Shown one piece after another: positions 5,323 through 47,306 of a stretch of DNA of 64,000 nucleotides; the first letter of the stretch is position 1, and the number at the start of each line of letters is the position of its first letter. A model generated the notes under the pieces. It saw nothing but the letters and a program-made list of their open reading frames with translations, had not been told where the DNA came from and did not search any database. Origin of the DNA: a bacterium (GTDB lineage: Bacteria; Babelota; Babeliae; Babelales; UBA12409); assembly GCA_018660415.1 (NCBI GenBank), contig JABJKG010000013.1, positions 1,874-65,873 of the forward strand, written 5' to 3'. Position numbers and translations under genes: made by a program.

Positions 5323-6531
5323 ATGACCAAAAATAGATTTCTTTCCATTAATTTCCTTATTCTTGTTGGAACCGTGTTAGGTGTTATAACAGGATTGTCA
5401 CATATCCCTTTTCTCTTCCATGCCGCAGACTCAATATCAAAAATCATTGTTAATCTATTGAGCTTGATTAGTATCCCTATGATATTTCTTTCTATCGTAT
5501 CGACCATATCCGGCATGCAAAACATGGACGAAATTAAACTGCTTGGTAAAGAAGTTCTCAAGTATACAATCCTCACAACAATCATCGCAGCCTCAATCGG
5601 TTTAATACTCTTTATCATTATTAATCCTGCACAAAGTGGTATCGGATTACGTGGCCTTATCGAGTCTGCTGGAGAAGGAGAAGGCTATCTTTCTGTAGTG
5701 CTGAGCATGTTCCCATCAAACGTGGTAAAAACATTTAATGATGGCAATGTCATGGGCGTTGTCTTTATAGCCTTGGGACTCAGTCTTTCAATCTTAACCC
5801 TTCCAACAAAAAATAAAGATATTTTACATGATATCTTTTCAAGCCTCTTTGCAGCTATCCTCAAAATAACCACCGTAATTATTTATCTCATGCCAGTAGC
5901 GGTTTGGGCCTTTATCTCAATATTCATTCACAATCTTGCCGGCCAAGACTGGAACAATATCAACAGCCTATTTTGGTATGTCATTACCGTTCTCCTTGCC
6001 AATGTTATCCAAGGTCTTATTGTTCTTCCTCTCTTTCTTCTCTTTAAAGGCATATCTCCAATTCGAGCATTTAAGGGAATGTCGCAAGCACTCACTGTTG
6101 CATTCTTTTCTCGATCATCCGGAGCAGCTCTTCCAATAACCATGCAAAATGCGCAACAAAACTTGGGCGTATCGGAACGAGTTTCTAAATTCACCCTACC
6201 ACTCTGCTCAACTATAAACATGAACGCATGCGCCGCCTTCATCTTAATTACAGTACTCTTTATTGGAACCATCAACGGTGTGTACTTTAGTTGGATTGAT
6301 ATGATCATGTGGATCTTCATTGCAACAATTGCCGCTATTGGAAATGCTGGAGTTCCTATGGGTTGTTACTTTTTAAGTAGTGCACTCTTAGTCGCAATGA
6401 AAATCCCTATCAATATCCTAGTCGTTATCCTTCCTCTTTATGCTTTTATCGACATGGTCGAAACAGCACTAAATGTATGGTCAGATTCAGTTGTCGCACT
6501 TGTTGTAGACAAAGAACTTAAAGCTAAGTAA
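5323..6531 (+). CDS. Dicarboxylate/amino acid:cation symporter (DAACS, GltP-like)
   Basis: 402 aa polytopic protein. RSSGAALP motif region and overall helix pattern fit the sodium:dicarboxylate symporter family. Confidence 0.85.
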   Translation: MTKNRFLSINFLILVGTVLGVITGLSHIPFLFHAADSISKIIVNLLSLISIPMIFLSIVSTISGMQNMDEIKLLGKEVLKYTILTTIIAASIGLILFIIINPAQSGIGLRGLIESAGEGEGYLSVVLSMFPSNVVKTFNDGNVMGVVFIALGLSLSILTLPTKNKDILHDIFSSLFAAILKITTVIIYLMPVAVWAFISIFIHNLAGQDWNNINSLFWYVITVLLANVIQGLIVLPLFLLFKGISPIRAFKGMSQALTVAFFSRSSGAALPITMQNAQQNLGVSERVSKFTLPLCSTINMNACAAFILITVLFIGTINGVYFSWIDMIMWIFIATIAAIGNAGVPMGCYFLSSALLVAMKIPINILVVILPLYAFIDMVETALNVWSDSVVALVVDKELKAK

Positions 6532-11004: not shown

Positions 11005-11790
11005 TTAAACAGTATCGAGGTTGCGCTTAAGATTGCAAATTCCACGCCATCCAATAGCGATAGTAAATAAAATAAGGACTGGAACACAAATCCAGAAAGA
11101 AATGTACTCGGCTGGTCCAAACACAGCAGACCGTAAACCTTCAGTAGTATAAATATATGGATTTAGAAGATCAATATAAGCAAAATTAGGAGTCATCTTT
11201 TTTAAGGCAAACCAAGAAAACTCAAAGCCGCCCAAGAACCACAAGGGAAACAAAACGCGCATCCATAGATTAATAATCCCCTGAAGACCGGATACCTTAC
11301 TGGATAAGTAAAGACCAAAAAATCCATACGCAAGATTGAAAATCAAGAGGAATGGTACCAACCTAATTAAAGACATATGAGAAAGATCGACGCGACTCCA
11401 AAACAATAACTTGCCTACAGGAAGAACTATCGAAGATACCAGTAGTCCTGTTATGGCAAAATAGAGCGCACGTTGTACAAAGACTAAACCACTCGGCATT
11501 GGTAATAACAAGTCATAATTGATCTGTTCTCTATGCTCATTAATATCTTGTGCAAAAAACTCCATCCTAAACATGATCTCTAGGTTGGCGGCGCTAGAAA
11601 TAGCAGAAACCAATACCAATGAACCGTAGGTCTCTGAAATACCAAAGTAAGGTAAGATATAAATTTTTATAAAGACGGTTACGATTACCCAAATAACCAT
11701 ATTGATTAAAATATCACGCCATGATTTCTTGAGTGTTAACAAGTCACGCTTGAGCATTAATCCAATGATTTTCAAATAATTGAGCCACAT
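11005..11790 (-). CDS. ABC-2-type transporter permease (paralog 2)
   Basis: Six-helix 261-aa protein, clearly paralogous to 11813-12601. Lies downstream of an ABC ATPase. Confidence 0.7.
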   Translation of the reverse strand: MWLNYLKIIGLMLKRDLLTLKKSWRDILINMVIWVIVTVFIKIYILPYFGISETYGSLVLVSAISSAANLEIMFRMEFFAQDINEHREQINYDLLLPMPSGLVFVQRALYFAITGLLVSSIVLPVGKLLFWSRVDLSHMSLIRLVPFLLIFNLAYGFFGLYLSSKVSGLQGIINLWMRVLFPLWFLGGFEFSWFALKKMTPNFAYIDLLNPYIYTTEGLRSAVFGPAEYISFWICVPVLILFTIAIGWRGICNLKRNLDTV

Positions 11791-18925: not shown

Positions 18926-19495
18926 TTGTTGGATGAAAGCTCTCAAAAGCTATATTCACAAGCAGGAAGACTTGAAAGAAAACTTGAACGAGAAAAATCA
19001 TCATTTTCTTCATCGCAAGCATCCCAGCTCGAGATACAGAACAACCAATGGGAACCAGATAAAGCATATAGGGCAGCACAATCAATCACAAGAAAACACC
19101 ATGAAGCTCTTGGAGCTATAGAACGTACAAAAGATGCGTGCCTGAATAAACTTCTTAAAACAAACTTCAATAAGAGCATCAGTGTGAAGTTTCAGTATGC
19201 CTATAAGCCTCAATTTTCAGCCAGCGGCAAAAAGCCTTGGACCGAGTTAAGTGATGATGCAGCTTGGGTACATATTCACGCCAAACTAATAAAAGAACAA
19301 GGTAAAAGACAAAAAAGTAGTGTTAAAAGGAAAATAGCACTTATACAGTCCATCCTAAGCGACAAAGCTGCGTGTATAAAAACGAGCGAAGCTGATACTG
19401 CACACGAAAACATTGTGTTTGATGAGGAAATGAAAAACCTTAAAAAGCGAACACTGCGGCTTGAAAGAAAAAAAGCAACACTGCTAGGGCAATAA
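18926..19495 (+). CDS. Hypothetical charged/coiled-coil protein
   Basis: No ATG until near the end of the ORF. The TTG at 18926 is preceded by GGGAG. No recognisable domain. Confidence 0.45.
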   Translation: MLDESSQKLYSQAGRLERKLEREKSSFSSSQASQLEIQNNQWEPDKAYRAAQSITRKHHEALGAIERTKDACLNKLLKTNFNKSISVKFQYAYKPQFSASGKKPWTELSDDAAWVHIHAKLIKEQGKRQKSSVKRKIALIQSILSDKAACIKTSEADTAHENIVFDEEMKNLKKRTLRLERKKATLLGQ

Positions 19496-19497
19496 GC

Positions 19498-20217
19498 TTA
19501 CAACTGAATATCATACTTACGTTGCCATTCGCCTAACGAAATAGGAAAGTGTGGCAGCGTAAGTTTTAATAAAGCACGAGCATAAACTTGAATCTCCCAC
19601 TGAGCGTTCTTAGGAATGCGTAATTTCATAAAATGCATTAAACTATGCAAATTGGTCGTAAAAATAAACTCGGTATACGTACACACCGGCAAACAACCTC
19701 GAGCTTGCTCACGTGCAACACCTGCCTCAAGTAGCTTTTCATATGCTTCAACAGCACTTTCAATATTCTTTTTATACGCTGCGGTTAACTCTTGATTATC
19801 AAAGCCACCAACTGATGCTTGTTTATCAACAGTATCTTGAATACGCCAATTGCTTGGAGTATAGAACTCTAAAGGCGCTTTAACATACCGGTAGCTGATT
19901 TCATTATAAGAGTTCATTCTGTGGCGCATCCACTGCCGAACAACATACATCGGTGCCTTAATTCTAAACGATACTTGGTTATGCTCAAAAGGACTGGTAT
20001 GATCATGCTCCATAAGAAACTTAATCAGTTTAGTGTCACGCTCGTCAAGCTCAGTCGAAACCTTACCCAAGGAAACACGTGCTGCGTTTACGACATCCAA
20101 ATCACTTCCAGAAACTCGCACAAGTTCAACAGAACTAATACTGTCACCTAATGGATCAATCGCTTTCTCAAATTTAAAACCAGACCGATCTTTTAATTCT
20201 TCTTTTTGAAAATCCAT
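19498..20217 (-). CDS. thyX: Flavin-dependent thymidylate synthase ThyX
   Basis: ThyX signature RHRMNSYNEISYRY (RHR-x7-S-x-R). Confidence 0.92.
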   Translation of the reverse strand: MDFQKEELKDRSGFKFEKAIDPLGDSISSVELVRVSGSDLDVVNAARVSLGKVSTELDERDTKLIKFLMEHDHTSPFEHNQVSFRIKAPMYVVRQWMRHRMNSYNEISYRYVKAPLEFYTPSNWRIQDTVDKQASVGGFDNQELTAAYKKNIESAVEAYEKLLEAGVAREQARGCLPVCTYTEFIFTTNLHSLMHFMKLRIPKNAQWEIQVYARALLKLTLPHFPISLGEWQRKYDIQL

Positions 20218-20296
20218 AACGTTTATACCTTTTTTAATTGCAAGCCTATCTTGTTGTCAGTGTAAACAAAGTTCCCAAAAAATAAAACTCTCTTTT

Positions 20297-21793
20297 TTAT
20301 TTCTTATAGGCCTCTTTTGCCATGTTTAAGAAATTCACTAAGTATGGTGTTGCTTCATTATACGGAACCTTTATTTCTGCATGGAACTGTTCACCAATAT
20401 GAAGCTTTTTAGTTGAACGCATCGCTTGATTATAGGATGACTCAGCCAGCAATTCAAAATCGTCCGGCATGATCGCAACAGCCCAGCCATGAACTTCGAT
20501 TGCAGTAAACGGGTTCGGAATATCTTTAAAAAGAGGGCTCTCTTTTACAATATTAACATACGGTTTTATATTTCTAAGCGGCTTGAGCATTGTAATGTCA
20601 TCCCAACCCATACTCCGGATAAATGTATATCCAGACGCACATGCGATCATTTGATGGCCACAACAGATTCCACACAACGGAATATCGCTATGACGAATTA
20701 ATTCAAATTCACCATTATACTCAAACATTGCAAGGTTTGGATAATTCGCATTGTTACCACTTAGTACTATAGCCACTGGCTTTCTTGATAACTTGTTTAC
20801 CATGTCGAGTGATACTTCATAATGCGGAACTACAACAGCATCTAATCCAATATTGAGCCCCTGTATGAATTTTTGTAGCTCGGTAAACGTATAACCATTC
20901 TCTTGGTTACCAACCACCAATACATAATCTCGGTTTGGCAACTCTGGAAGTGGTGGCATACCGGGACTATAGAAAGTAACAGCATTTATCTGAGCCGCAT
21001 ACCCTTCCCAACGATTGATCATCAATCGTAAGTATTGTGTTTTTACTGGAGGGAAATTGAGAATATTTCTAAACGTGTCGTTATTGTTAATACGAGTATC
21101 AGGAATATCTTTCCAGTTTTTTTTATCTTCACTCATTTGCCATACAAAATCGACTAAGCGATTATCTTTCGATGCCGGGTTGGATAACATCCAAATACGA
21201 GTAAGCGTTGTTGGTTTATCAAAACCAAACTCTACCCACTGTGTAGATGATCCGGGAGGTGTGGATTGCCAAAATGATAATTGCCCTGGGTCATCAAGAT
21301 CAATATTGTTCTTTTCATTAAAACCACTAGAAACTGAAACATCTTTTACAGGAACCCGAACAAGGTTCATAAAATGTTTATCTGATTCAGTATCAACATA
21401 AAAGCGCGTCTGTCCCCAGCCACTAGAGTTGCCTGCCTCGTCTGTCGCCTTAGCGCGCCAGTAATAACGAACCCCGTCTTTAAGTTCATTACCTTCTTGA
21501 ACTCGATATCCAGTCACATAGGCCGTCTCTTCTGGAATATTTGTATACGCTATCAAATCTTTAGAGTTAAACTGGTCAGAAGTGTCCAGCTGCATAGAGT
21601 ACGTACGCTTTCCTATACCACCCTTAGAGTTAAAAACCGACAACAACGGCCGATGATTGGTAACAATAACATCAAAACTTGGGTTGTTACCCATCCCCGG
21701 AGACGTTATAGCCTCAACACCACTGTTTTCTTTTTTTCTACAACCTGAGGCCACCAATAAGATACTAATAACTAAAATTTTATAATTTTTCAC
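20297..21793 (-). CDS. Lipoprotein with FN3-like, F5/8-type-C (discoidin)-like and class-I glutamine amidotransferase-like domains
   Basis: Lipobox LVASGC. YYWRAKATDEAGNSSGW is FN3-like. SFWQS...QWVEFGF...YLRLMINRW is discoidin-like. The nucleophile elbow PLCGICCGHQ lies at 20651-20680 on the minus strand. Distal motifs are HGW and EQFHAE. Confidence 0.7.
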   Translation of the reverse strand: MKNYKILVISILLVASGCRKKENSGVEAITSPGMGNNPSFDVIVTNHRPLLSVFNSKGGIGKRTYSMQLDTSDQFNSKDLIAYTNIPEETAYVTGYRVQEGNELKDGVRYYWRAKATDEAGNSSGWGQTRFYVDTESDKHFMNLVRVPVKDVSVSSGFNEKNNIDLDDPGQLSFWQSTPPGSSTQWVEFGFDKPTTLTRIWMLSNPASKDNRLVDFVWQMSEDKKNWKDIPDTRINNNDTFRNILNFPPVKTQYLRLMINRWEGYAAQINAVTFYSPGMPPLPELPNRDYVLVVGNQENGYTFTELQKFIQGLNIGLDAVVVPHYEVSLDMVNKLSRKPVAIVLSGNNANYPNLAMFEYNGEFELIRHSDIPLCGICCGHQMIACASGYTFIRSMGWDDITMLKPLRNIKPYVNIVKESPLFKDIPNPFTAIEVHGWAVAIMPDDFELLAESSYNQAMRSTKKLHIGEQFHAEIKVPYNEATPYLVNFLNMAKEAYKK

Positions 21794-21966
21794 AGTACTC
21801 CTTTATCTTTTCTCCACACTATCTTAGTCGGTTTTATAAATGCAACCTTTAACAGCTGGTACCAAAGATATGCTGAAAAAGTTTTATGGTTTTCTTGGTT
21901 TTTCTTAATATTAGTGCAATATTTTCTTGAAAAGAATTAATACGTTTTTTTTAAATTGGAAAAATC

Positions 21967-22488
21967 ATGATATTTTCAGGTAAAGAAATCAAACGACGTC
22001 TCAATAGCGACATAATCATCATGCCATACAGCGAAAAACAGCTTAACCCCAACAGTTATAATCTACGACTGCACAACGAGCTCCTCACATATAATGACCA
22101 TGTTTTGGATATGAAAAAACAAAACTTAGCCACCCCCTTGATTATACCCCCAGAAGGCCTTGAGCTTGAGGCTAACAAGCTGTATCTAGGGCGAACAGTA
22201 GAATTTACCGCAACCTATAACTGTGTCCCTATGCTCGAAGGTCGTTCGTCTATTGGACGTCTTGGACTCTTTGTACACATAACAGCGGGGTTTGGAGATG
22301 TAGGGTTCAAAGGTTTTTGGACTTTAGAAATATTTTGTGTGCAACCAGTACGTGTTTATCCTGATGTCGAAATTGCACAAATATTTTATCACAGCATCGA
22401 GGGCGACTTCTCTGAATATGAAAGTAATAAATACCAAAACAACGCTGGGGTTCAACCAAGCATGCTGTATAAGGATTTTGAAAAATAA
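21967..22488 (+). CDS. dcd: dCTP deaminase
   Basis: 173 aa. LNPNSYNLRL, RSSIGRLGLFVH and WTLEI motifs of the Dcd/dUTPase-fold family. Confidence 0.85.
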   Translation: MIFSGKEIKRRLNSDIIIMPYSEKQLNPNSYNLRLHNELLTYNDHVLDMKKQNLATPLIIPPEGLELEANKLYLGRTVEFTATYNCVPMLEGRSSIGRLGLFVHITAGFGDVGFKGFWTLEIFCVQPVRVYPDVEIAQIFYHSIEGDFSEYESNKYQNNAGVQPSMLYKDFEK

Positions 22489-22505
22489 TTAAAAAAAGGT
22501 TTTAA

Positions 22506-23300
22506 GTGAAGCTTAAATATACTGTTTTATGGTGTCCAATTTTTATTTCAATGTTGATGTTGGGCGTAGATTTAAACACTAAAAAGGCAATCGTGATTGG
22601 TGCTTCACATGGTATCGGCAAAGAAGTGGCTACAATATTGGTAGATAAGGGATATCATGTTGGGCTCGTAAGTCGAAACACCAAAGCATTGGCGCGCTTA
22701 CAAAAAAACCTTGGTGGTCAAACCATAACCAAAAAAATTGATATAACTAAGCCGGGCGCTCAAAAAAGCCTTGACGATCTTATCTACCAAATGAATGGTG
22801 TTGATGTTGTAGTTATTAGCGCTGGAATCTGGCCTGAAGATGGTGTTTCGATTTCTTGGGAGGATGAACGAAACACAATCGCTACCAATGTTTCAGGCTT
22901 TGTTGCCATGGCCAACATTGCTCTCAATCATTTCATTCAACAGGGTTCCGGACACCTTGTGGGAGTTTCTTCTGTTGATGCTGTTCGTGGTTCAGCTACC
23001 GCTCCAGCCTACTGTGCTTCCAAAGCATTTGTGTCTACCTATATGGAAGGCATGCGTAATAAGTTTATCCAAAGTAAACTTCCCATCTATGTAACCGATG
23101 TACGACCCGGATATGTTAAAACATATGACATACAAGAGTCTGCATACTGGGTGCTTTCTCCTGAGCAAGCTGCTCAAGATATTTATGATGCAATTGTTAA
23201 AAAACAGAGAATAATCTATACAACCAAACGGTGGTGGATTATTGCAAAGCTACTTCAAATAACGCCAGATTTTATTTACAATAAAGTGGGTGGTTTTTAA
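22506..23300 (+). CDS. Short-chain dehydrogenase/reductase (SDR)
   Basis: GASHGIGKE cofactor motif and catalytic YCASK. GTG start with a hydrophobic N-terminal extension; the true start is uncertain. Confidence 0.85.
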   Translation: MKLKYTVLWCPIFISMLMLGVDLNTKKAIVIGASHGIGKEVATILVDKGYHVGLVSRNTKALARLQKNLGGQTITKKIDITKPGAQKSLDDLIYQMNGVDVVVISAGIWPEDGVSISWEDERNTIATNVSGFVAMANIALNHFIQQGSGHLVGVSSVDAVRGSATAPAYCASKAFVSTYMEGMRNKFIQSKLPIYVTDVRPGYVKTYDIQESAYWVLSPEQAAQDIYDAIVKKQRIIYTTKRWWIIAKLLQITPDFIYNKVGGF

Positions 23301-23320
23301 ATTTCATACTAAGGAAAAAT

Positions 23321-23974
23321 ATGAACAAGTCAGAAGTCATTGAAAAAACACGAGAATTTGTACGCAAAGAAATGGAAGGCGAAGGCTCTGGTCATGACTG
23401 GTGGCATATTGATCGTGTTACAAAAACAGCTCTCACTATTGGCAAAGAAGAAAAGGCTGACTTATTTATAGTCGAACTGGGAGCATTGTTGCATGATATT
23501 GCAGACCAAAAATTCCATAACGGCGACGAAACTGTTGGCCCTCGAGTAGCAACCCAATGGCTAGAATCTCTCAATACAGAACAGTATGTCATTGATGCGG
23601 TGTGCCAAATTATTAAAGACATCTCGTACAAGGGCGCCAACACGGCAACACCAATGAAAACCCTCGAAGGACAGATTGTCCAAGATGCTGATCGTCTCGA
23701 TGCACTAGGCGCTGTTGGTATCGCTCGCTGTTTTGCATACGGTGGACACAAACAACAACCTATCCACAGCCCTGATATAAACCCTATCAACCATGCTACT
23801 TTTGAAGAATATAAAAAAACAAAAACGACCAGCATCAACCATTTTTATGAAAAGTTATTACTACTCAAAGATAGAATCAATACCGAATCAGGTAAGAAAA
23901 TAGCTCAAGAGCGTGACCTATTTATGCAACAGTTTTTAGATCAATTTTTTGCTGAGTCTGAAGGTCTAAACTAA
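23321..23974 (+). CDS. HD-domain phosphohydrolase
   Basis: WWHIDRV, LLHDIAD and DADRLDALGAVG motifs. Confidence 0.8.
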   Translation: MNKSEVIEKTREFVRKEMEGEGSGHDWWHIDRVTKTALTIGKEEKADLFIVELGALLHDIADQKFHNGDETVGPRVATQWLESLNTEQYVIDAVCQIIKDISYKGANTATPMKTLEGQIVQDADRLDALGAVGIARCFAYGGHKQQPIHSPDINPINHATFEEYKKTKTTSINHFYEKLLLLKDRINTESGKKIAQERDLFMQQFLDQFFAESEGLN

Positions 23975-23985
23975 AAGGTTGTTTT

Positions 23986-24253
23986 ATGAAAACAAAAGAC
24001 AAGATCTTAGACGGCATTGTTTCGTTTATTTGCATTATATTCCCACTGACCACGATCCCTCAAGTTAAAAAAATTTGGATGGAACAGAACGTAGAGGGAA
24101 TTTCTTTATTAACGTGGGTTTTATACCTCGTCTTTACTATTCCGCTCATTGCCTATGCCATCAAAAAAAAAGGATATGAAGCTAGCTATAATGTGGGTCA
24201 TTTGGGCGTTTGTATACATTCTTGTCATCACTGGGACCGTTTTCTATCAATAG
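23986..24253 (+). CDS. PQ-loop/SemiSWEET-type 3-helix transporter, frame broken at an A9 run
   Basis: TM1 carries the PQ motif (LTTIPQVKKIW), and TM2 is intact. After A9 (24163-24171) the called frame gives non-membrane sequence. The +1 frame gives DMKLAIMWVIWAFVYILVITGTVFYQ-stop at 24251-24253, a clean TM3. Confidence 0.6.
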
Positions 24254-26962
24254 CTACTTTGTAACTGCTTGCCAGTCAGTACCGGACTTGATCCCCACCT
24301 TAAGAGGAACATCCCAGTCAACAATGTTCTCTAGAACATCTAGCGTTAATTTTTGCACCTCTTCCAATTCTGACTCTGGTACCTCTATTAACAATTCATC
24401 ATGAATTTGTAATAAGATTTTTGATTGGAGATTCTTGGTTTTTAATTGCTTATGAAGTTCAATCATACTCAATTTCATAATCTCAGCAGCAGTACCCTGT
24501 GCAACAGTGTTAATAGCAATCCTTTTGGCCGCCTCGAATAACGACTTATTGTTCTCTGTGATTCCGGGAACATCACGCTTACGACCCCAATAGGTAGTGG
24601 TATATCCAAGCTCTTTAGTTTTTTCTACAATGCTCGCCATCCATTGTGCAACACCAGGATATTGCGCAAAATAGCGATCAATATATTCCTTAGCCTGGTG
24701 CATTGGAATCCTCAAATCTTTTGATAGTCCAAAAGGCGTCAAACCATATAAAATACTAAAGTTGATACGCTTACCTACGCCACGCTGTTCTGATGTTACC
24801 TGATCAACAGATATTTCAAACAACCCTGCCGCCGTTTGAGCGTGAATATCTTTATCTTCCAAGAATGCTTTTTTGAGCACTGGGTCTTGCGACAAGAACG
24901 CAAGCACGCGCAATTCAATCTGAGAGTAATCGGCAGAAAGGAAAACATGACCAGGCCGTGCCTTAAACGCTGAACGAATCTGGATACTGGAATCTACTGG
25001 AATGTTCTGTAAATTCGGATCCGAACTCGATAAGCGACCGGTTGCTGTACGGGTTTGACTAAAGCTAGTATGTACCCGTTTAGTATTGGGGTTTACATAC
25101 ACTGGCAACGAACTAATATAGGTACTTTGTAACTTAGAAAGCTCTCGATACTTTAACAATAAAGCTGGTACAGGATGTAACTTAGCAAGGTTTTCGAGCA
25201 CTTCCTGATCGGTAGAATAACCAGTTTTTTTTCTCTTTTGTGGTGGCAACATCAACTGATTAAATAAAATATCTTCTATTTGCTTTGGTGAGTTCAGGTT
25301 AACATCATCCGAACCAACAAGGGCTTTAATTTCATTTTCGATTTTTTTTATTTCTTTTTCAACCAGCACACCAATCTCTTGTAACATTTCAACATCAAGA
25401 GCAATGCCCTCAGCTTCCATGTCAACAAGAACATCTATGAGTGGGTTTTCAATATCGCCATACAACCCCATCAGCTCATTTTTTTCCAAAAGATCCTTAA
25501 AATGATAAAACAATTTTAAAGTTTGATGTGCATCAGAAGCGGCATACTCAGTAGCTAATGCAACCGGAACATAAGAAAAGTCTTTTGCTTTTGATTCGGC
25601 TACAACCATGCTATACGTCAGCATTGATTCTTGGAACACGGACTCTGAAAGTTGCTTTAAACCTACACTTTGCCAAGCCTCTACAACCAGACTCGCACCA
25701 ACCATAGTATCAAAATCTAACCCCTGCATCTTAATGCCACTTTGTGCAAAAACATGCATATCAAATTTAGCATGATGCAAATATTTTTTTATCTTCGGGT
25801 CTTCTAAGATTGGCTTAAGCGCTGTAACAACTTGCTCTAATGAAAGTTGTTTTTGTGTTTCATCCTGATGACCTGTAGGAATATAAAATGATTCTCCTTC
25901 AACAGTAGAAATCGAAGTTCCGATCCATTTATCAATAAACGGATTAACTCCAGTAGTTTCAGTATCAGTTGCAAATGCACCAGCCTTTTTAACTTGCTCT
26001 ACTACAGCATCTAACTCTTGTTGGGTTAATACTACTTTAAAATCATATTTTTTCTTAACAGATAGGTGCTCTTCTGGTAACAACGACAATTGTTTTGGTT
26101 GGTTGACTTCAATCGCCTTAACAAGTGTCTTAAAGTTAAGCTCTTCAAAAAATTTTCTCGCACTTTTCCACTCATCCTTATCAAACTTTAACTCCGATGC
26201 TAGAGTATCTAGCTTGTGATAGCGAAGCTTGAATAACCGCTCGCTTAAAAATGCATTGTCTTTATTGTTTTCTAGGGCTGTTTTAATACGTGGCTTTGCT
26301 ATTTGATCAAGGTTGGCATACATTTGTTCTAAGCTATCAAACTGTTGAACAAGCTCAGTCGCTCCGACCTTACCAATCCCACGAACACCCGGAATATTAT
26401 CAGAAGCGTCACCTAGTAGTGCATGATAGAAAGCAAGCTTTTCAATAGGAAACCCCTTACTTTCTTCAAACTCAGCAACATCGACTATTTTATTTTTAAA
26501 TGGATCAAAAACACGCACCTTATCATCAATCATTTGATAAAGGTCTTTATCAGAACTAATAACAATAACATCATGCTGGGCAGAAAAATCTTTTGCTAAA
26601 GAATAAATAATATCATCGGCTTCAATGCCGGCCATGGCCATCTGCTTTAGGTGAATTAAGTCAGCAAACTCGTTTATCAATATTTTTTGTTCAAATAAGT
26701 CACTCGGAGGCGCCTGGCGCGTTGCCTTGTATGCCTCAAACTCTTCGTGGCGTTCAGTCTTACCCTTACTATCCCATACTAGTACTAACTGCTGAGGATC
26801 AAAACTATCTATAACTTTTTTAATCATTCGTACAAAACCATAAACAGCCTGTACTGGCTTTCCATCACGAGCATGCAAAGGTTTAAGTGCATAATACGCA
26901 CGGTATAAAAATGATGATCCATCAATCAGGTATAGGGTTTTGTCTATTTTTTGTTGTGACAC
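24254..26962 (-). CDS. polA: DNA polymerase I
   Basis: The 5' nuclease region (LIDGSSFLYRAYYA), the 3'-5' exonuclease region and the polymerase motifs (DYSQIELRVLA, QIHDELLIEV) are all present. The likely start is GTG at 26962, with GGAG 6 nt upstream; the track ATG at 27037 would add 25 unlikely residues. Confidence 0.9.
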   Translation of the reverse strand: MSQQKIDKTLYLIDGSSFLYRAYYALKPLHARDGKPVQAVYGFVRMIKKVIDSFDPQQLVLVWDSKGKTERHEEFEAYKATRQAPPSDLFEQKILINEFADLIHLKQMAMAGIEADDIIYSLAKDFSAQHDVIVISSDKDLYQMIDDKVRVFDPFKNKIVDVAEFEESKGFPIEKLAFYHALLGDASDNIPGVRGIGKVGATELVQQFDSLEQMYANLDQIAKPRIKTALENNKDNAFLSERLFKLRYHKLDTLASELKFDKDEWKSARKFFEELNFKTLVKAIEVNQPKQLSLLPEEHLSVKKKYDFKVVLTQQELDAVVEQVKKAGAFATDTETTGVNPFIDKWIGTSISTVEGESFYIPTGHQDETQKQLSLEQVVTALKPILEDPKIKKYLHHAKFDMHVFAQSGIKMQGLDFDTMVGASLVVEAWQSVGLKQLSESVFQESMLTYSMVVAESKAKDFSYVPVALATEYAASDAHQTLKLFYHFKDLLEKNELMGLYGDIENPLIDVLVDMEAEGIALDVEMLQEIGVLVEKEIKKIENEIKALVGSDDVNLNSPKQIEDILFNQLMLPPQKRKKTGYSTDQEVLENLAKLHPVPALLLKYRELSKLQSTYISSLPVYVNPNTKRVHTSFSQTRTATGRLSSSDPNLQNIPVDSSIQIRSAFKARPGHVFLSADYSQIELRVLAFLSQDPVLKKAFLEDKDIHAQTAAGLFEISVDQVTSEQRGVGKRINFSILYGLTPFGLSKDLRIPMHQAKEYIDRYFAQYPGVAQWMASIVEKTKELGYTTTYWGRKRDVPGITENNKSLFEAAKRIAINTVAQGTAAEIMKLSMIELHKQLKTKNLQSKILLQIHDELLIEVPESELEEVQKLTLDVLENIVDWDVPLKVGIKSGTDWQAVTK

Positions 26963-30543: not shown

Positions 30544-31083
30544 ATGAAAAAAACCTTATTAGTGCTCAGTCTTGTACTTTATAGCACTGTATATACAGAA
30601 GTGTATCGCATATATATCACCAATAACACTCAAGAGGTCATTCCACATGTTCGAATTAAAGTACAAAAGAAAGGTTGGAATAAAACCTACCAACGTTCAG
30701 AGCACTGTTATGGGTCGGTTCATATCGATGAGCTTAAGTCTGGCCACACCCAGTCTGTAGTCCTTGAAAACGCAACAAAACGACTCCGAAGCTTTGTACA
30801 TCGGGATCCCAAATACCCATTTCGTGACCACTGGGTTAGGGGTGGCAGAAAGGAAAACGAGTGGTACCCATTAGGGATGCACCTAGAAAATGCTCAAATT
30901 GTACCACTCGGCATTATCGTTGATACAGCAAGTGGTTGCCCTGGTGGCTGTAGGGTCACGCGTAAAGGGAAATGTGCAGAACGGCATGATAATGCCGAAT
31001 ATCACATAGGGGCCGATCCCACCGCAAATAGTTATAGCTTGGCTAGAAAAGACGGTCGAGTCGTAGTAAAAGCAGCAAAATAG
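30544..31083 (+). CDS. Secreted Cys-containing protein, paralog 1 (unknown family)
   Basis: Signal peptide is present. YITNNTQEVIPHVRIKV block. C-terminal GCPGGCRVTRKGKCAERHDNA. Confidence 0.6.
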   Translation: MKKTLLVLSLVLYSTVYTEVYRIYITNNTQEVIPHVRIKVQKKGWNKTYQRSEHCYGSVHIDELKSGHTQSVVLENATKRLRSFVHRDPKYPFRDHWVRGGRKENEWYPLGMHLENAQIVPLGIIVDTASGCPGGCRVTRKGKCAERHDNAEYHIGADPTANSYSLARKDGRVVVKAAK

Positions 31084-34539: not shown

Positions 34540-35841
34540 ATGAAACCAACCATTCCACAACTGTTTTTTTCCACACTACTCTTAACATCAATGTATGTTC
34601 AATCTAAGAAAAATACTCCAGAATTTTCTGAACTGGTTTTCACACCAATCAATTCACAACAAATAAGAACTGTAACCATTCCTAAGTCTAAACTTCAGAA
34701 TGCCCTTGATGGCGGTGCAGCGTTTGACGGTTCTTCAATCGGTGGATACGGTACTATCACGGATAGTGACAAGCTCTTAAAGGTCGATTCTAATGCTCAC
34801 TACTCTCTTTATAATGAAGAAAGTGACACAGCTACCGGATTATATTTTTGTGATGTCTACGCCGATGAAAAAACTCCATACCTAGGTGATCCACGCACGT
34901 TATGTAAACATGCAATGCAGGTGCTTCAAGAAAAAACTGGTTATCAAATTTCTGTTGGCACCGAACTAGAATTTTATTTGATAGACAAAGAGGCCTGGGA
35001 ACAAGGCGAAATAACACCTATCAACCAATCACGCTATTTTGATTTAGAGCCAGACCAGGAAATTACTACGTTTAAACTTGAAGCCATGAAAGCTCTAGTT
35101 GAAAGTGGTGTTGATGTAGAAAAATGGCATAGCGAAGTCGGACCCGCACAGTATGAAATTAGTATTCAATATACCGATCCAATTTCACTTGGAGATCAAT
35201 TAATACTCGCTAAACACATTATTGCGCTACACGCAGATAGAGCTGGCATGAAAGCTATTTTCACACCTAAGCCTATTGCTACAGAAAATGGCAGCGGTCT
35301 TCATATCCATTTTAGCTTATGGAATAAAAAAACAAATGCTTTTTACGATGCACAAGTCAACGGCTTATCTCAAACCGCTTACACGTTCTTAGCTGGTATC
35401 ATGAAGTACATTTCTGATGTAGCACCTTTATTCAACTGCGACGAAAATTCTTTCCAGCGATTAGTTCCAGGGTTTGAAGCTCCTATTTACCTCTGTTATG
35501 GAGAAAAAAACCGATCAGCTGCATTTAGAATTCCAGCTACATACGGTAGTGCAAATGCAACACGCTTTGAGTTACGCTGCCCTGATGTATATTGCAACCC
35601 ATACTTAGCGTTTACCGCCATTATACTCACAGGGCTACAAGGTTTAATCGATAACGAACAAGCCGTTCCTGAAATCAAGAGTAATTTGTACACGATGACC
35701 GAAGAAGAAATTGCTAGCCTTAACATTAAGCGCTTACCGCTCTCTCTTAAAGAAGCGTTAGAAAATTTTGAAAACAGTGGGTTTGTAAAACAACACTTAC
35801 CAGAAGAGTTTGTAACAAACTTTTTACACCTTATGAAATAA
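34540..35841 (+). CDS. Glutamine synthetase family protein (type I-like)
   Basis: FDGSSIGG, GTELEFYL, GSGLHIHFSLW and NRSAAFRIP motifs. Confidence 0.85.
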   Translation: MKPTIPQLFFSTLLLTSMYVQSKKNTPEFSELVFTPINSQQIRTVTIPKSKLQNALDGGAAFDGSSIGGYGTITDSDKLLKVDSNAHYSLYNEESDTATGLYFCDVYADEKTPYLGDPRTLCKHAMQVLQEKTGYQISVGTELEFYLIDKEAWEQGEITPINQSRYFDLEPDQEITTFKLEAMKALVESGVDVEKWHSEVGPAQYEISIQYTDPISLGDQLILAKHIIALHADRAGMKAIFTPKPIATENGSGLHIHFSLWNKKTNAFYDAQVNGLSQTAYTFLAGIMKYISDVAPLFNCDENSFQRLVPGFEAPIYLCYGEKNRSAAFRIPATYGSANATRFELRCPDVYCNPYLAFTAIILTGLQGLIDNEQAVPEIKSNLYTMTEEEIASLNIKRLPLSLKEALENFENSGFVKQHLPEEFVTNFLHLMK

Positions 35842-45644: not shown

Positions 45645-47306
45645 ATGGGGGTCAAAATGAAGTTAAAGTTATTAGGTATACTGTTTCTAGGATGTTTAGT
45701 TTTAAATACTAGTCCGTCAGATAGTGAAGATGAATTTCATGATGCACTTCCGCCAGCCCGAAAACTACAAGTAGCAGGGGGTGGACTGGGAGCTTTCTCA
45801 CGTATAGACCTATTGGCCCTACAAGAACGACAGCGGGAAAGGTTAGAGCTGGCCAGAGCTCAACAAGAAGCTCGTGCAGCTAGAGCAGCAACTGAAGAGG
45901 CTAGGCTTGCCCACGCTACCTATGAGGGACGAGTGGAAGATTTGGTTGCCGAACAAGTAGACGCACAAAGAAGAACCGAACTGGAAGCTGCTGAACGAGA
46001 AAGACTAGCAGCAACGGTTGCAGCTAGAGAGCAAGCCCGTGAACAGGAGGCAAGAGCAAAGGCTGAAGAAATAGCTCTTCAGGCCCAGGGTGAACTTGCA
46101 CGCATAAGGCGAGGCGTTTCTCCTGAACAACAACTATTCAGACATATTATCAACCCTGATATTCACGCCCTCCCGCTTGTTACTATTACCAAAGAAGCCA
46201 TACTGCTCAATGAATTTAAAATTCCAGAAAAAGAAACAATGTCTCTTTATGTAAAACACATCAATGGAGACACCCTCGTCCAGGACCAAGGTAAAATTAT
46301 GCTTATTAGTGTACATGGAACCTATGCTCACGCGCGGTCGTTTGGTCTTGATAACAACAGGTTAAACTCCCAACAAATTATCAATTTTGCAAAAGTATTA
46401 TCTATCGCCCACAACAAGCCAGTCGACTTGTTAATATTCGAGTGGTCTGGAAAGCTATTACAAGAAGATCGAATAAAGGCTGGAGATGTCCTTGCTGGAT
46501 GGATACAACCAAAATTAGCTCATGAAAATTACTCTGAAATTTGGACCGTCGCTCATAGCCATGGGTGTAATGTTGTTAACAACATGGCAAATACATTAAA
46601 AACTTTAGTGCCAGCACGTCCTATAAATGTTGGAGTACAAATAGCATCTCCTAAGCTAGATCAACCTTTGTTCGATCCTGATGCTCCCAGAACAGTTTCT
46701 GATCTAACAAAAACATATAACTTTAAAAAACTTTACCATTTTTACTCCACAGGAGACAATATACAGGCTGCAGGATCAATGGAACAAAACCGCTACTTTG
46801 GGCTATTCTCACCTACATATTCTGCTGATAGAAAAATCCAAGCACCGCTTTTATACCACGAAAACCGCATCCTTTATAATATAAGAATCCAGGATGGAGA
46901 TATAGAGCCAGATCATATCCTTATAAAAATACCGGTCATGGCCAACCTGCCAAAGCTCTTATCTATTATCGACTATCAATACCCTGAGTATTTTGATCTT
47001 GATGCTGCATTATTTTACAATCCTTTAATCGCGAAATACCCCGAACAACTCAGATGGTTTGTTACTTCTATAGGTAAATACACACAAGCCAATGATGATC
47101 AACCGCTCGTTGCTATCAGAAATCGAGAGTCTTTTCATCAAGGGAGTTTGCTGCCTGATAAGATAATCACCAGTCTTAATTTTAGTGATGAGCAAAAAGA
47201 ACGGTTTAAAAAAGTATACCAACGCGACATTTCTAAAAAAAGAGCTCATAGGCTTGCTCCATTCTTTACCAATGAATTCTATTCTAGCAAGCTAGTTAAC
47301 CTATAA
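45645..47306 (+). CDS. Secreted protein with an Ala/Glu/Arg coiled-coil region and a lipase-like alpha/beta-hydrolase domain
   Basis: Signal peptide is present. About 110 aa of AERQ-rich heptad-like sequence, encoded by a visibly GC-rich stretch (~45790-46130). ISVHGTYAH and a nucleophile-elbow-like VAHSHGCNV (~46548-46571). Confidence 0.6.
   Translation: MGVKMKLKLLGILFLGCLVLNTSPSDSEDEFHDALPPARKLQVAGGGLGAFSRIDLLALQERQRERLELARAQQEARAARAATEEARLAHATYEGRVEDLVAEQVDAQRRTELEAAERERLAATVAAREQAREQEARAKAEEIALQAQGELARIRRGVSPEQQLFRHIINPDIHALPLVTITKEAILLNEFKIPEKETMSLYVKHINGDTLVQDQGKIMLISVHGTYAHARSFGLDNNRLNSQQIINFAKVLSIAHNKPVDLLIFEWSGKLLQEDRIKAGDVLAGWIQPKLAHENYSEIWTVAHSHGCNVVNNMANTLKTLVPARPINVGVQIASPKLDQPLFDPDAPRTVSDLTKTYNFKKLYHFYSTGDNIQAAGSMEQNRYFGLFSPTYSADRKIQAPLLYHENRILYNIRIQDGDIEPDHILIKIPVMANLPKLLSIIDYQYPEYFDLDAALFYNPLIAKYPEQLRWFVTSIGKYTQANDDQPLVAIRNRESFHQGSLLPDKIITSLNFSDEQKERFKKVYQRDISKKRAHRLAPFFTNEFYSSKLVNL

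What the first reader, a model, noticed from the sequence alone, without database searches (positions are those of the whole stretch)
19498..22488. Surface lipoprotein with discoidin and amidotransferase/C26-like domains sandwiched between thyX and dcd: possible host folate or glutamine scavenging
Seen directly:
- The 498-aa product of 20297-21793 has a lipobox (LVASGC).
- It has an FN3-like segment and an F5/8-type-C-like binding domain.
- It has a C-terminal class-I glutamine amidotransferase fold, with an intact nucleophile elbow (CGICCGHQ) and a distal His/Glu (EQFHAE).
- It is flanked by thyX (19498-20217) and dcd (21967-22488), the two dTMP-pathway genes. An SDR and an HD hydrolase follow.

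Established:
- Class-I GATase domains normally work fused or bound to a cytoplasmic synthase.
- The same clan includes the peptidase C26 gamma-glutamyl hydrolases, which strip polyglutamate tails from folates.
- ThyX needs methylenetetrahydrofolate.

Inference: an exported, lipid-anchored GATase fold cannot feed a synthase, so it is more likely a hydrolase. It could be a glutaminase or a gamma-glutamyl hydrolase. The thymidylate context suggests deconjugation of host folylpolyglutamates for uptake by a folate auxotroph. I know of no described system with this domain combination and context.
Basis: inference. Interest (0 to 1): 0.66.

Follow-up and report, generated by a model that had tools for sequence, protein, structure and literature searches.

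The report
Exported glutaminase-like enzyme, Gad-operon family
The gene is a real exported lipoprotein carrying a glutamine-hydrolysing domain, but its position next to the thymidylate genes is an insertion accident; in other bacteria its relatives sit beside the glutamate/GABA acid-resistance genes, so it is most likely an envelope glutaminase and not a folate-scavenging enzyme.

Summary
ORF 20297-21793 (-) encodes a 498-aa protein with a lipobox (LVASGC), an Ig-like domain, an F5/8-type-C (CBM32-like) domain and a class-I GATase domain. The triad C377/H471/E473 is invariant in 28 aligned homologues. thyX and dcd flank the gene.

The folate/thymidylate reading does not hold.
- The window comes from a Dependentiae (Babeliales) genome.
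- In its two closest relatives, dcd and thyX are directly adjacent and divergent, 75 bp apart. The gene is therefore a lineage-specific insertion.
- 0 of 80 thyX loci carry the family, and 0 of 67 family loci carry thyX or dcd.
- 41 of 67 family loci, from about seven phyla, have gadC (Glu/Gln:GABA antiporter) and/or gadB (glutamate decarboxylase) within 3 kb. These occur in several gene orders, and no glsA is nearby.
- The catalytic domain is closest in sequence and fold to glutamine-using GATases (GuaA subunit A, PabA, TrpG). It is less like C26 gamma-glutamyl hydrolases.

Best explanation (confidence about 0.55): a synthase-independent, mostly exported glutaminase that fills the GlsA/YbaS role of glutamine-dependent Gad modules. 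Here it is an orphan copy. I found no description of the family. I rate it a new variant of a known kind, of moderate interest.

The parts
20297..21793 (-). Complete ORF (498 aa plus stop) of the exported Ig-like / F5/8-type-C / class-I GATase protein
   Evidence: ORF listing. Pfam and NCBIfam matches. 218 homologues. AF2 model with pLDDT 87 and pTM 0.85.
21798..21804 (-). Shine-Dalgarno-like AAAGGAG, 4 nt upstream of the GTG start
   Evidence: Read directly from the sequence.
21740..21793 (-). Lipoprotein-type signal peptide, residues 1-18 (MKNYKILVISILLVASG|C), lipobox Cys18
   Evidence: Sequence. Alignment with the leaders and lipobox Cys of homologues. Census: 93 of 117 family members have a hydrophobic leader and 34 have a strict lipobox.
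21389..21706 (-). N-terminal Ig-like beta-sandwich domain (about residues 30-135). It begins with the highly conserved mature N-terminus xPxLxNNPSxDV
   Evidence: AF2 strands 50-133 with pLDDT above 90. Weak Pfam matches to Ig_Rha78A_N and Big_13. The same domain occurs as a 10-36-copy repeat in giant 2000-7000-aa proteins.
20999..21334 (-). F5/8 type C (discoidin, CBM32-like) domain, residues 154-265
   Evidence: Pfam PF00754 at 2.8e-13 and PF22633 at 7.5e-10. PDB profile matches to the CBM32 modules of NagH and NagJ.
20300..20932 (-). Class-I (triad) glutamine amidotransferase domain, residues 288-498
   Evidence: Pfam PF00117 at 2.9e-14. PDB profile best match is GMP synthase subunit A at 4.8e-22. 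The domain-only AF2 model matches M. jannaschii GuaA-A with TM 0.82 and 26% identity.
20663..20665 (-). Codon of the nucleophile Cys377, in the elbow G-I-C-C-G-H-Q
   Evidence: Invariant in 28 sequences. It aligns with the catalytic Cys in the GICLGHQ motif of the M. jannaschii GATase.
20375..20383 (-). Codons of His471-Ala472-Glu473, the rest of the catalytic triad (QFHAE)
   Evidence: H471 and E473 are invariant. They align with QFHPE of GuaA-A.
20719..20761 (-). Oxyanion-strand region S345-G-N-N, followed by the start of the family-specific invariant loop YPNLxMFEYNG (the loop continues to residue 361)
   Evidence: S345, G346, N347, M356, F357, E358, N360 and G361 are invariant. The loop has pLDDT below 50 in the domain model. 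Its role is inferred.
19498..20217 (-). thyX. It is the downstream neighbour on the same strand (79-nt gap). It is context only and is not functionally linked
   Evidence: TIGR02170 at 186 bits. In relatives it abuts dcd directly.
21967..22488 (+). dcd (dCTP deaminase), divergently transcribed. It is context only
   Evidence: TIGR02274 at 99 bits. In relatives L090 and L091 it is adjacent to thyX with a 75-bp intergenic region.

Best explanation
**What the gene encodes.** An envelope-located, lipid-anchored enzyme of three rigidly packed domains: Ig-like, discoidin/CBM32-like and triad class-I GATase.

**What the family is.** It belongs to a compact, uncharacterised family spread across at least seven phyla. 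Its conserved genomic partners are the Glu/Gln:GABA antiporter GadC and the glutamate decarboxylase GadB. The family occupies the operon slot that the unrelated glutaminase GlsA/YbaS holds in known glutamine-dependent acid-resistance (AR2_Q) loci.

**Most likely mechanism.**
1. Cys377 attacks the amide of L-glutamine, with His471/Glu473 as the relay. No synthase partner is needed.
2. This releases NH3 and glutamate outside the cytoplasmic membrane.
3. NH3 takes up a proton.
4. Glutamate is taken up. In most genomes GadC imports it in exchange for GABA made by GadB, which consumes a cytoplasmic proton and can build a proton-motive force.

**In this Dependentiae genome.** The gene is an orphan copy, branching next to the chlamydial gadC-gadB-X genes, that was inserted into the dcd/thyX divergent intergenic region. 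Here it would deamidate host glutamine at the bacterial envelope. That would supply glutamate and ammonia, and possibly buffer an acidic vacuole.

**Shown.** Domain make-up, the conserved triad, the export signal, the Gad linkage, the absence of glsA nearby, and the insertion.

**Inferred.** The substrate, independence from a partner, the fate of the products, and the role in this organism.
For: **Architecture and triad.**
- Domains and catalytic residues.
- All closest sequence and fold relatives use free L-glutamine. The PDB profile's best match is GuaA-A at 4.8e-22. In the domain-only Foldseek search, ranks 1-39 are GMPS, ADCS/PabA, TrpG and the CPS small subunit.

**Export.**
- 93 of 117 family members have a hydrophobic leader. 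This copy has a lipobox.

**Gad linkage.**
- 41 of 67 family loci from GTDB genomes have GadB and/or GadC within 3 kb. 33 are on the same strand and 30 have both.
- Gaps are often 6-40 nt. At least five gene orders occur: X-GadC-GadB 13, GadC-GadB-X 9, X-GadB-GadC 4, and others.
- By phylum: Chlamydiota 7/7, Bacteroidota 8/9, Patescibacteria 8/9, Bdellovibrionota 2/2, Omnitrophota 6/9.
- Control: 0 of 80 thyX-anchored loci contain gadB or gadC.
- The neighbouring decarboxylase passes the glutamate decarboxylase equivalog (680 bits against a cut-off of 380). The best matches of the permeases are the GadC models.

**Parallel with glsA.**
- No GlsA-type glutaminase lies within +/-10 kb of any of the 67 loci.
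- In known systems glsA sits in the same variety of positions next to gadB/gadC (PMC6250119). Glutaminase plus GadC suffices for acid resistance (PMC3641589).
- Seven Omnitrophota loci add an OprB-type porin directly upstream, which gives a complete envelope route.
- Loci without Gad genes still carry a transporter next door: MFS in three loci, CitMHS, and a porin.

**Insertion.**

**Placement next to the chlamydial clade.**
Against: - No activity has been measured for any family member.
- The closest solved relatives (GuaA-A, PabA, TrpG) are nearly inactive as glutaminases without their synthase partner (my knowledge of the family). Partner-independent activity must therefore have evolved here and is unproven.
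- A free-glutamine glutaminase has no obvious need for Ig-like and CBM32-like domains.
- About 14 Patescibacteria/Saccharibacteria members are leaderless, with an in-frame stop just upstream. The family is therefore not uniformly extracytoplasmic.
- The window (64 kb) contains no gadB, gadC or any APC permease. The coupling partner in this organism is unknown.
- The adjacent permeases score below the equivalog cut-offs of the GadC models.
- A divergent Desulfobacterota/Alcaligenaceae subclade (39-45% identity) is mostly not linked to Gad genes.
- The NJ tree has no support values.
Confidence: 0.55

Rival explanations
1. Gamma-glutamyl hydrolase or transferase acting on a larger gamma-glutamyl substrate. 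Candidates include poly-gamma-glutamate, glutathione, gamma-glutamyl peptides, or a glycoconjugate recognised by the CBM32-like domain. The enzyme would release glutamate, which GadC then imports.
For: - The CBM32-like and Ig-like domains are retained and rigidly packed against the catalytic domain (pTM 0.85). This suggests a composite binding site or a polymeric or surface-bound substrate.
- Most homologues also match Peptidase_C26 in the precomputed Pfam lists. A C26-like fold (3fij) scores only a little below the glutamine GATases (TM 0.69 against 0.82).
- Two Omnitrophota operons also encode a CBAH-family linear-amide hydrolase. This hints at processing of conjugated amides.
- The Gad linkage requires only that glutamate be the product.
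Against: - Sequence and fold are nearest to enzymes specific for free L-glutamine.
- The Peptidase_C26 match in this protein only reaches the cut-off and lies under the GATase match.
- Leaderless cytoplasmic members keep the same domains. This argues against a role for those domains in binding extracellular polymers.
Confidence: 0.2
2. A surface folylpoly-gamma-glutamate hydrolase deconjugates host folates for uptake, and is functionally tied to ThyX and Dcd.
For: - In this genome the gene lies between thyX and dcd, with no terminator-like signal in the 79-nt gap before thyX.
- The GATase clan includes C26 gamma-glutamyl hydrolases (established knowledge).
- The organism is a host-dependent Dependentiae.
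Against: - The adjacency is unique to this lineage. The closest relatives have dcd and thyX abutting with 75 bp between them.
- 0 of 67 family loci have thyX or dcd, and 0 of 80 thyX loci have the family.
- The conserved partners are gadB/gadC.
- The domain is closest to GuaA/PabA/TrpG-type GATases. Human GGH is not among the top 50 fold matches, and no C26 chain appears in the PDB profile search.
- No folate transporter or folate gene was identified beside it.
Confidence: 0.03
3. A conventional amidotransferase subunit. The GATase domain would deliver ammonia to an unidentified acceptor-activating partner or domain, for example to amidate a cell-envelope component bound by the discoidin domain.
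For: - The closest relatives are all subunits of two-component amidotransferases.
- The tight three-domain packing could enclose an ammonia path (inference).
Against: - No synthase-like gene recurs among the +/-3 neighbours in 67 loci. Recurrent clusters are GadC, GadB, OprB, Rrf2, a TonB-dependent receptor, YidC, an SSF symporter and a DEAD-box helicase.
- The protein is exported in about 80% of members. No ATP is available outside the cytoplasm to activate an acceptor (established biochemistry).
- Neither N-terminal domain resembles a synthetase fold.
Confidence: 0.07
4. A non-enzymatic adhesin or binding lipoprotein, or a decaying horizontally transferred remnant with no current function in this genome.
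For: - The gene is an orphan here, away from gadB/gadC.
- Its N-terminal Ig-like domain is homologous to repeats of giant surface-type proteins.
- CBM32 domains are binding modules.
Against: - The ORF is intact. It keeps all 78 family-invariant residues, including the triad and the nucleophile elbow.
- It is 99% identical to the representative of a cluster recorded on 19 contigs from several samples.
- Its composition matches that of the host genome, so it is long resident.
Confidence: 0.08

Closest known systems
GlsA/YbaS acid glutaminase of the glutamine-dependent Gad system (AR2_Q) in E. coli, Brucella microti, Limosilactobacillus reuteri and Bacteroides
   Same: - It holds the same operon slot. 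Both are encoded in varying positions directly beside gadB and gadC (PMC6250119).
- The predicted reaction is the same: Gln -> Glu + NH3, feeding GadC/GadB (PMC3641589).
   Different: - The fold is unrelated. GlsA is a serine-dependent, beta-lactamase-like PF04960 enzyme. This family is a Cys-His-Glu class-I GATase.
- GlsA is cytoplasmic. About 80% of this family carries an export signal or lipobox.
- This family has two extra beta-sandwich domains.
- No activity has been shown.
- In the window the gene is not next to gadB/gadC.
GMP synthase subunit A (archaeal GuaA-A), and PabA/TrpG glutamine amidotransferase subunits
   Same: - These are the closest relatives in sequence (4.8e-22) and in fold (TM 0.82, 26% identity).
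- They share the nucleophile elbow G-x-C-x-G-H-Q and the H-x-E triad.
   Different: - Those proteins are cytoplasmic and depend on a synthase partner. This family is exported and has no partner gene nearby.
- The oxyanion strand reads SGNN. In the relatives, as I recall, it reads SGGP.
- That strand is followed by an invariant family-specific loop, YPNLxMFEYNG.
- The domain is fused to Ig-like and discoidin domains.
Peptidase C26 gamma-glutamyl hydrolases (human GGH, E. coli PuuD)
   Same: - Same clan and triad chemistry.
- They are stand-alone hydrolases. GGH is secreted or lysosomal.
- There is a weak Pfam PF07722 match at the cut-off.
   Different: - C26 proteins are not the nearest relatives. 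A C26-like fold appears only at rank 40, GGH is absent from the top 50, and no C26 chain appears in the PDB profile search.
- There is no folate or putrescine-pathway context.
Periplasmic deamidases that feed glutamate or aspartate uptake and release ammonia: Helicobacter pylori GGT and AnsB, and the Pseudomonas periplasmic glutaminase-asparaginase (from my own knowledge)
   Same: The logic is the same. Glutamine is deamidated outside the cytoplasmic membrane, the acidic amino acid is imported, and the ammonia helps acid tolerance.
   Different: - The folds are unrelated (Ntn-hydrolase and type II asparaginase).
- Those enzymes are not linked to gadB/gadC.

Membership tests
Class-I (triad) glutamine amidotransferase domain, Pfam PF00117 | Profile match above the curated threshold | tested here: met
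   PF00117 at 53.6 bits against a cut-off of 22.8, residues 313-476.
Class-I (triad) glutamine amidotransferase domain, Pfam PF00117 | Cys-His-Glu triad with the Cys in a G-x-C-x-G nucleophile elbow | tested here: met
   C377 (GICCGHQ), H471 and E473 are invariant in 28 homologues. They align with the catalytic motifs of GuaA-A.
Class-I (triad) glutamine amidotransferase domain, Pfam PF00117 | Alpha/beta fold superposable on solved GATases | tested here: met
   Domain model with pLDDT 84.5. TM 0.82 and rmsd about 3 A to the M. jannaschii GATase subunit.
Class-I (triad) glutamine amidotransferase domain, Pfam PF00117 | Works with a fused or co-encoded synthase that accepts the ammonia | tested here: not met
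   There is no synthase domain in the protein. No recurrent synthase-like neighbour occurs in 67 loci. An export signal is present in about 80% of members.
GMP synthase subunit A (NCBIfam NF001975, equivalog) | Score above the equivalog cut-off | tested here: not met
   56.3 bits against a cut-off of 198. It is the nearest family, but this protein is not a member.
Peptidase C26 gamma-glutamyl hydrolase (PF07722) | Best-matching profile and fold is of the C26 type | tested here: not met
   PF07722 scores 20.9 bits against a cut-off of 20.5 and lies under the stronger GATase match. No C26 chain appears among 50 PDB profile matches. C26-like 3fij ranks 40th, and human GGH is absent from the top 50.
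Peptidase C26 gamma-glutamyl hydrolase (PF07722) | Hydrolysis of gamma-glutamyl bonds of folylpolyglutamates or gamma-Glu-GABA | not testable with these tools
   This needs an enzyme assay.
Glutamine/glutamate-dependent Gad acid-resistance module (gadB + gadC + glutaminase) | Encoded beside gadB (glutamate decarboxylase) and gadC (antiporter) | tested here: inconclusive
   Met for the family: 41 of 67 loci, 30 with both genes, and GadB passes TIGR01788 at 680 bits. Not met in this window: no gadB or gadC in 64 kb. The rest of the genome was not available.
Glutamine/glutamate-dependent Gad acid-resistance module (gadB + gadC + glutaminase) | The glutaminase component is a GlsA/YbaS (PF04960) homologue | tested here: not met
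   The fold is different. No glsA lies in the 67 loci or in the window. The family can only be an analogue, not a homologue.
Glutamine/glutamate-dependent Gad acid-resistance module (gadB + gadC + glutaminase) | Confers glutamine-dependent acid survival | not testable with these tools
Bacterial lipoprotein (SPase II substrate) | Basic n-region, hydrophobic h-region, and a lipobox [LVI..][ASTVI][GAS]C within the first 15-35 residues or so | tested here: met
   MKNYKILVISILLVASG|C, with Cys18. The pattern is shared by 34 of 117 homologues under a strict regular expression. This is a pattern-level test only. No SignalP-type predictor was available, and lgt/lspA were not looked for.
F5/8 type C (discoidin) / CBM32 domain | Profile match above threshold and a beta-sandwich fold | tested here: met
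   PF00754 at 50.6 bits against 28.2, and PF22633 at 39.7 against 27.8. PDB matches to the CBM32 modules of NagH and NagJ. AF2 strands 144-277. Ligand binding was not tested.

The most novel reading that the evidence does not exclude
This would be an unrecognised extracytoplasmic arm of the glutamine/glutamate-GABA system. An exported triad GATase has become synthase-independent. Its Ig-like and discoidin domains and the invariant YPNLxMFEYNG loop take over the activating role of the synthase partner. The enzyme replaces GlsA in gadBC operons across Omnitrophota, Patescibacteria, Chlamydiota, Bacteroidota, Desulfobacterota and Bdellovibrionota. It would give periplasmic ammonia buffering together with glutamate supply for proton-consuming, energy-conserving Glu/GABA antiport. 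It would have spread by horizontal transfer, including into Dependentiae, possibly from chlamydia-like co-residents of protists.
Probability: 0.35. Interest if true: 0.7.

Novelty: new variant of a known kind. Interest (0 to 1): 0.5.

Why it matters
- Class-I glutamine amidotransferase domains are textbook cytoplasmic, partner-dependent ammonia donors. A conserved exported, stand-alone version would extend what this fold is known to do.
- It would add a non-homologous glutaminase to the Gad acid-resistance and energy-conservation module. Many of the carrier lineages are uncultured, small-genome or host-dependent (CPR, Omnitrophota, Chlamydiae, Dependentiae), and their envelope physiology is almost unknown.
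- Current annotations are 'discoidin domain-containing protein', 'GMP synthase-like glutamine amidotransferase' and 'aminodeoxychorismate/anthranilate synthase component 2'. These could be replaced by a testable function.
- For this window, the practical lesson is that the thymidylate context is an insertion artefact. It should not be used to infer folate scavenging.

Tried and rejected
- **Folate/thymidylate coupling:** rejected on synteny and on domain affinity.
- **gadB, gadC, OprB and glsA in the window:** tblastn found none. The only hit was a spurious 35-residue OprB match. Whether this genome has a Gad system elsewhere could not be settled, because only 64 kb plus +/-10 kb flanks were readable.
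- **Promoter/terminator scan of 19300-22600:** counts were no higher than in shuffles, and nothing lies in the 79-nt gap before thyX. Co-transcription with thyX is neither shown nor excluded.
- **Compositional test for recent transfer:** GC, GC3 and codon-usage cosine are like those of the neighbours, so there is no signal.
- **Transporter and GS assignment:** NCBIfam could not assign the window's SDF transporter to GltP, DctA or SstT. The GS is below the GlnA cut-off.
- **Literature:** four full-text searches found no description of this family or of an exported class-I GATase linked to gadBC.
- **Model coordinates:** I could not test whether the N-terminal domains dock on the synthase-binding face of the GATase domain.

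Full report
**1. What is in the sequence**

The minus-strand ORF 20297..21793 encodes 498 aa. It starts at GTG, with AAAGGAG 4 nt upstream.

- Its N-terminus, MKNYKILVISILLVASGC, has the shape of a lipoprotein signal, with Cys18 as the lipobox cysteine.
- Pfam places an F5/8-type-C domain at residues 154-265 (E 2.8e-13). It places a class-I GATase domain at 313-476 (E 2.9e-14). A Peptidase_C26 match only reaches its cut-off and lies under the GATase match.
- Residues about 30-135 form an Ig-like beta-sandwich. Pfam matches there are sub-threshold, but the AF2 prediction is confident.
- thyX (19498-20217, -) lies 79 nt downstream on the same strand. dcd (21967-22488, +) is divergent. An SDR and an HD phosphohydrolase follow.

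The one exception is 'surface': exposure on the cell surface is not shown.

**2. It belongs to a family**

A search of 5.8 billion proteins returned 218 homologues. The full-length ones are 50-60% identical and have the same three domains. Where named, they are annotated 'discoidin domain-containing protein', 'GMP synthase-like glutamine amidotransferase' or 'aminodeoxychorismate/anthranilate synthase component 2'. They come from Omnitrophota, Patescibacteria, Parachlamydiales, Anoxychlamydiales and 'Deltaproteobacteria' MAGs.

- In an alignment of 28 members, C377 (G-I-C-[CA]-G-H-Q), H471 and E473 are invariant. So are S345-G346-N347 on the oxyanion strand and a family-specific loop, M356-F357-E358-x-N360-G361.
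- A profile search of 1.84 billion cluster representatives found 175 proteins at E <= 1e-30. Only about ten of these are full-length clusters at the 50% identity level, so the family is compact.
- The other strong matches are to the N-terminal Ig-like domain. It occurs as a 10-36-copy repeat in giant proteins of 2000-7000 aa.

**3. Structure**

- The AF2 model of the whole protein has pLDDT 87 and pTM 0.85. This indicates a rigid three-domain unit.
- A domain-only model of residues 288-498 has pLDDT 84.5.
- Against the PDB, ranks 1-39 are all glutamine-using amidotransferase subunits or domains. The best is the M. jannaschii GMP synthetase GATase subunit (E 3.7e-15, TM 0.82, 26% identity). The 4-amino-4-deoxychorismate synthase GATase domain, PabA, TrpG and the CPS small subunit follow.
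- A C26-like protein (lin1909, 3fij) appears at rank 40 with TM 0.69. Human GGH is not in the top 50.
- A profile search of PDB sequences agrees. GuaA subunit A scores 4.8e-22, no C26 chain is found, and the discoidin domain matches the CBM32 modules of NagH and NagJ.
- NCBIfam's best hit is GMP synthase subunit A, but far below its cut-off (56 against 198 bits).

**4. Export**

- Of 117 family proteins with a recognisable mature N-terminus, 93 have a hydrophobic leader. 34 of those have a strict lipobox.
- About eight of the 23 without a leader are truncated start calls.
- About 14, of Patescibacteria/Saccharibacteria type, are truly leaderless. I confirmed in-frame stops immediately upstream in six loci. 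Three other Patescibacteria copies carry an N-terminal transmembrane anchor.

The family is mostly, but not always, extracytoplasmic.

**5. Organism**

The window's IF-2 is most similar to proteins named Candidatus Babeliales, candidate division TM6 or Dependentiae (up to 68% identity). This is a Dependentiae genome, a lineage of protist-associated bacteria with reduced metabolism.

The window also encodes an SDF-family symporter of unassignable specificity, a GlnA-like glutamine synthetase, a secretin, ClpB, M16, M23 and C11 peptidases, ComEC, NusA, Rho and others.

**6. The thyX/dcd context is an insertion**

- I anchored on ThyX and fetched 80 metagenome loci. None carries the family within 6 kb.
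- The two closest relatives are L090 and L091 (ThyX 85%, Dcd 80-81%, PolA 72-76%, ABC-F 72% identity). Both have the order polA ... dcd(-) | thyX(+) ABC-F. dcd and thyX are divergent and separated by 75 bp.
- In the window, 1749 bp separate the two start codons, and the 498-aa gene fills that gap.
- The SDR, HD and PQ-loop genes and orf189 are also absent from those relatives.
- Conversely, none of 67 family loci from GTDB genomes has thyX or dcd within 10 kb.
- The gene's GC, GC3 and codon usage match its neighbours. The insertion is therefore not compositionally recent.
- No terminator or promoter signal above background separates it from thyX.

**7. The conserved context is gadB/gadC**

- Four contexts read through the protein index all showed an APC permease and a PLP decarboxylase beside the gene. 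They came from Parachlamydiales, Anoxychlamydiales, Omnitrophota and Patescibacteria.
- The decarboxylases pass the glutamate decarboxylase equivalog TIGR01788 (660-680 bits against a cut-off of 380). The permeases' best models are the Gln/GABA and Glu/GABA antiporter GadC models, though below the equivalog cut-offs.
- Across 67 family loci, 41 have GadB and/or GadC within 3 kb. 33 are on the same strand and 30 have both. Gaps are often 6-40 nt.
- Several gene orders occur: X-GadC-GadB 13, GadC-GadB-X 9, X-GadB-GadC 4, divergent GadC/X 5, and others.
- Many of the remaining loci are truncated contigs, or belong to a divergent Desulfobacterota/Alcaligenaceae subclade. Transporters still recur there: an MFS directly downstream in three loci, CitMHS, and a porin.
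- Seven Omnitrophota loci have an OprB-type porin gene directly upstream. Two also have a CBAH-family amidase.
- As a control, none of the 80 thyX loci contains gadB or gadC.
- No GlsA/YbaS-type glutaminase is found in any of the 67 loci or in the window.

**8. Comparison with what is known**

- In E. coli, the glutaminase YbaS and GadC together suffice for glutamine-dependent acid resistance, through release of ammonia (PMC3641589).
- A survey of gadBC-carrying bacteria found glsA directly after gadBC, after gadC, after gadB or before gadC (PMC6250119).
- The family here shows the same positional behaviour relative to gadB/gadC, in loci that lack a nearby glsA. This is the pattern expected for a non-orthologous replacement of the glutaminase.
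- It differs in three ways. The fold is a Cys-His-Glu GATase, not a PF04960 enzyme. The location is usually exported. Two extra domains are present.
- From my own knowledge, the closest solved relatives (GuaA-A, PabA, TrpG) need their synthase partner for appreciable glutaminase activity. Independence from a partner is therefore an inference. The invariant loop after the oxyanion strand and the tightly packed N-terminal domains are candidates for providing that activation.
- Also from my own knowledge, periplasmic deamidases that feed glutamate uptake and release ammonia are known in Helicobacter (GGT, AnsB), with unrelated folds.

**9. Place of this copy in the family**

An NJ tree without support values puts the window protein inside the Gad-linked main clade. 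It is sister to the Chlamydiota group, whose members are all gadC-gadB-X lipoproteins.

Both lineages live in protists. Transfer of the X gene alone from a chlamydia-like operon, or from a shared donor, is plausible but unproven. The window has no gadB or gadC, and I could not read the rest of the genome.

**10. Verdict**

- The inference that an exported GATase fold is a hydrolase is reasonable. Its 'glutaminase' branch is supported by conserved context and by domain affinity.
- The best explanation is an envelope glutaminase analogous to GlsA (confidence about 0.55). The main rival is a hydrolase acting on larger gamma-glutamyl substrates (about 0.2).
- Four literature searches found no description of the family.
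- I rate it a new variant of a known kind, with moderate interest. Its value lies in the family-level association with gadBC, not in the local thyX/dcd arrangement.

Noticed in passing
window 22506-24264 (+): The SDR, the HD phosphohydrolase and a 92-aa PQ-loop (SemiSWEET-like) ORF lie between dcd and polA. tblastn does not detect the SDR or the HD gene in the two closest relatives, and in L091 polA lies 437 bp from dcd. This looks like a second lineage-specific insertion next to the first.
   Followed up: partly
window 18926-19495 (+): A 189-aa ORF with no significant Pfam match lies between thyX and the ABC-F gene. It is absent from relatives L090 and L091, where thyX is followed directly by ABC-F (44-nt gap). 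It may be a third insertion, or not a gene at all.
   Followed up: partly
window 57401-59314 (+), and the whole window: The best named relatives of IF-2 are Candidatus Babeliales, TM6 and Dependentiae (68% identity). The window is therefore from a Dependentiae genome. NCBI labels the near-identical MAG only as 'bacterium'.
   Followed up: yes
window 5323-6531 (+) and 34540-35841 (+): An SDF-family cation:dicarboxylate/amino-acid symporter (GltP, DctA and SstT models all far below cut-off) and a GlnA-like glutamine synthetase. Together they could take up glutamate and remake glutamine downstream of an envelope glutaminase. This link is speculative.
   Followed up: partly
L008 4376-6986; L015 6435-7550; L011, L014, L016, L022, L036, L052 upstream genes: Omnitrophota versions of the operon add an OprB-family porin directly upstream of the family gene (7 loci). 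Two of them also have a choloylglycine-hydrolase-family (CBAH) linear-amide hydrolase. This suggests a larger envelope pathway for amide-containing substrates.
   Followed up: partly
L009 2643-6989 (same arrangement in L028 and L025): Patescibacteria loci carry three tandem GadC-like antiporter paralogues upstream of a leaderless family gene. No gadB is nearby.
   Followed up: no
proteins P0254-P0389; window 21389-21706: The N-terminal Ig-like domain of the family is homologous to a unit repeated 10-36 times in giant proteins of 2000-7000 aa in the metagenomic protein library.
   Followed up: no
window 20711-20743 (-), residues 351-361: The loop YPNLAMFEYNG follows the oxyanion strand. It is invariant or nearly invariant across phyla, yet it is predicted with pLDDT below 50. 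It could be a mobile lid or an activation element.
   Followed up: no
L038, L045, L049, L050, L062 (Bacteroidota loci), upstream of the family gene: A conserved block of YidC, a TonB-dependent receptor and a divergent Rrf2-family regulator sits upstream of X-gadC-gadB. The Rrf2 regulator may control the operon.
   Followed up: partly
window 45645-47306 (+), 61759-63735 (+), 30544-31083 (+), 11005-11790 (-): Four sizeable ORFs (553, 658, 179 and 261 aa) have no Pfam match at E <= 1e-8.
   Followed up: no
window 53731-55143 (+) and 49658-52291 (-): A clostripain-family (C11) peptidase and an 877-aa M16 (insulinase-type) peptidase lie near ComEC. They would fit a host-protein-degrading lifestyle.
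   Followed up: no
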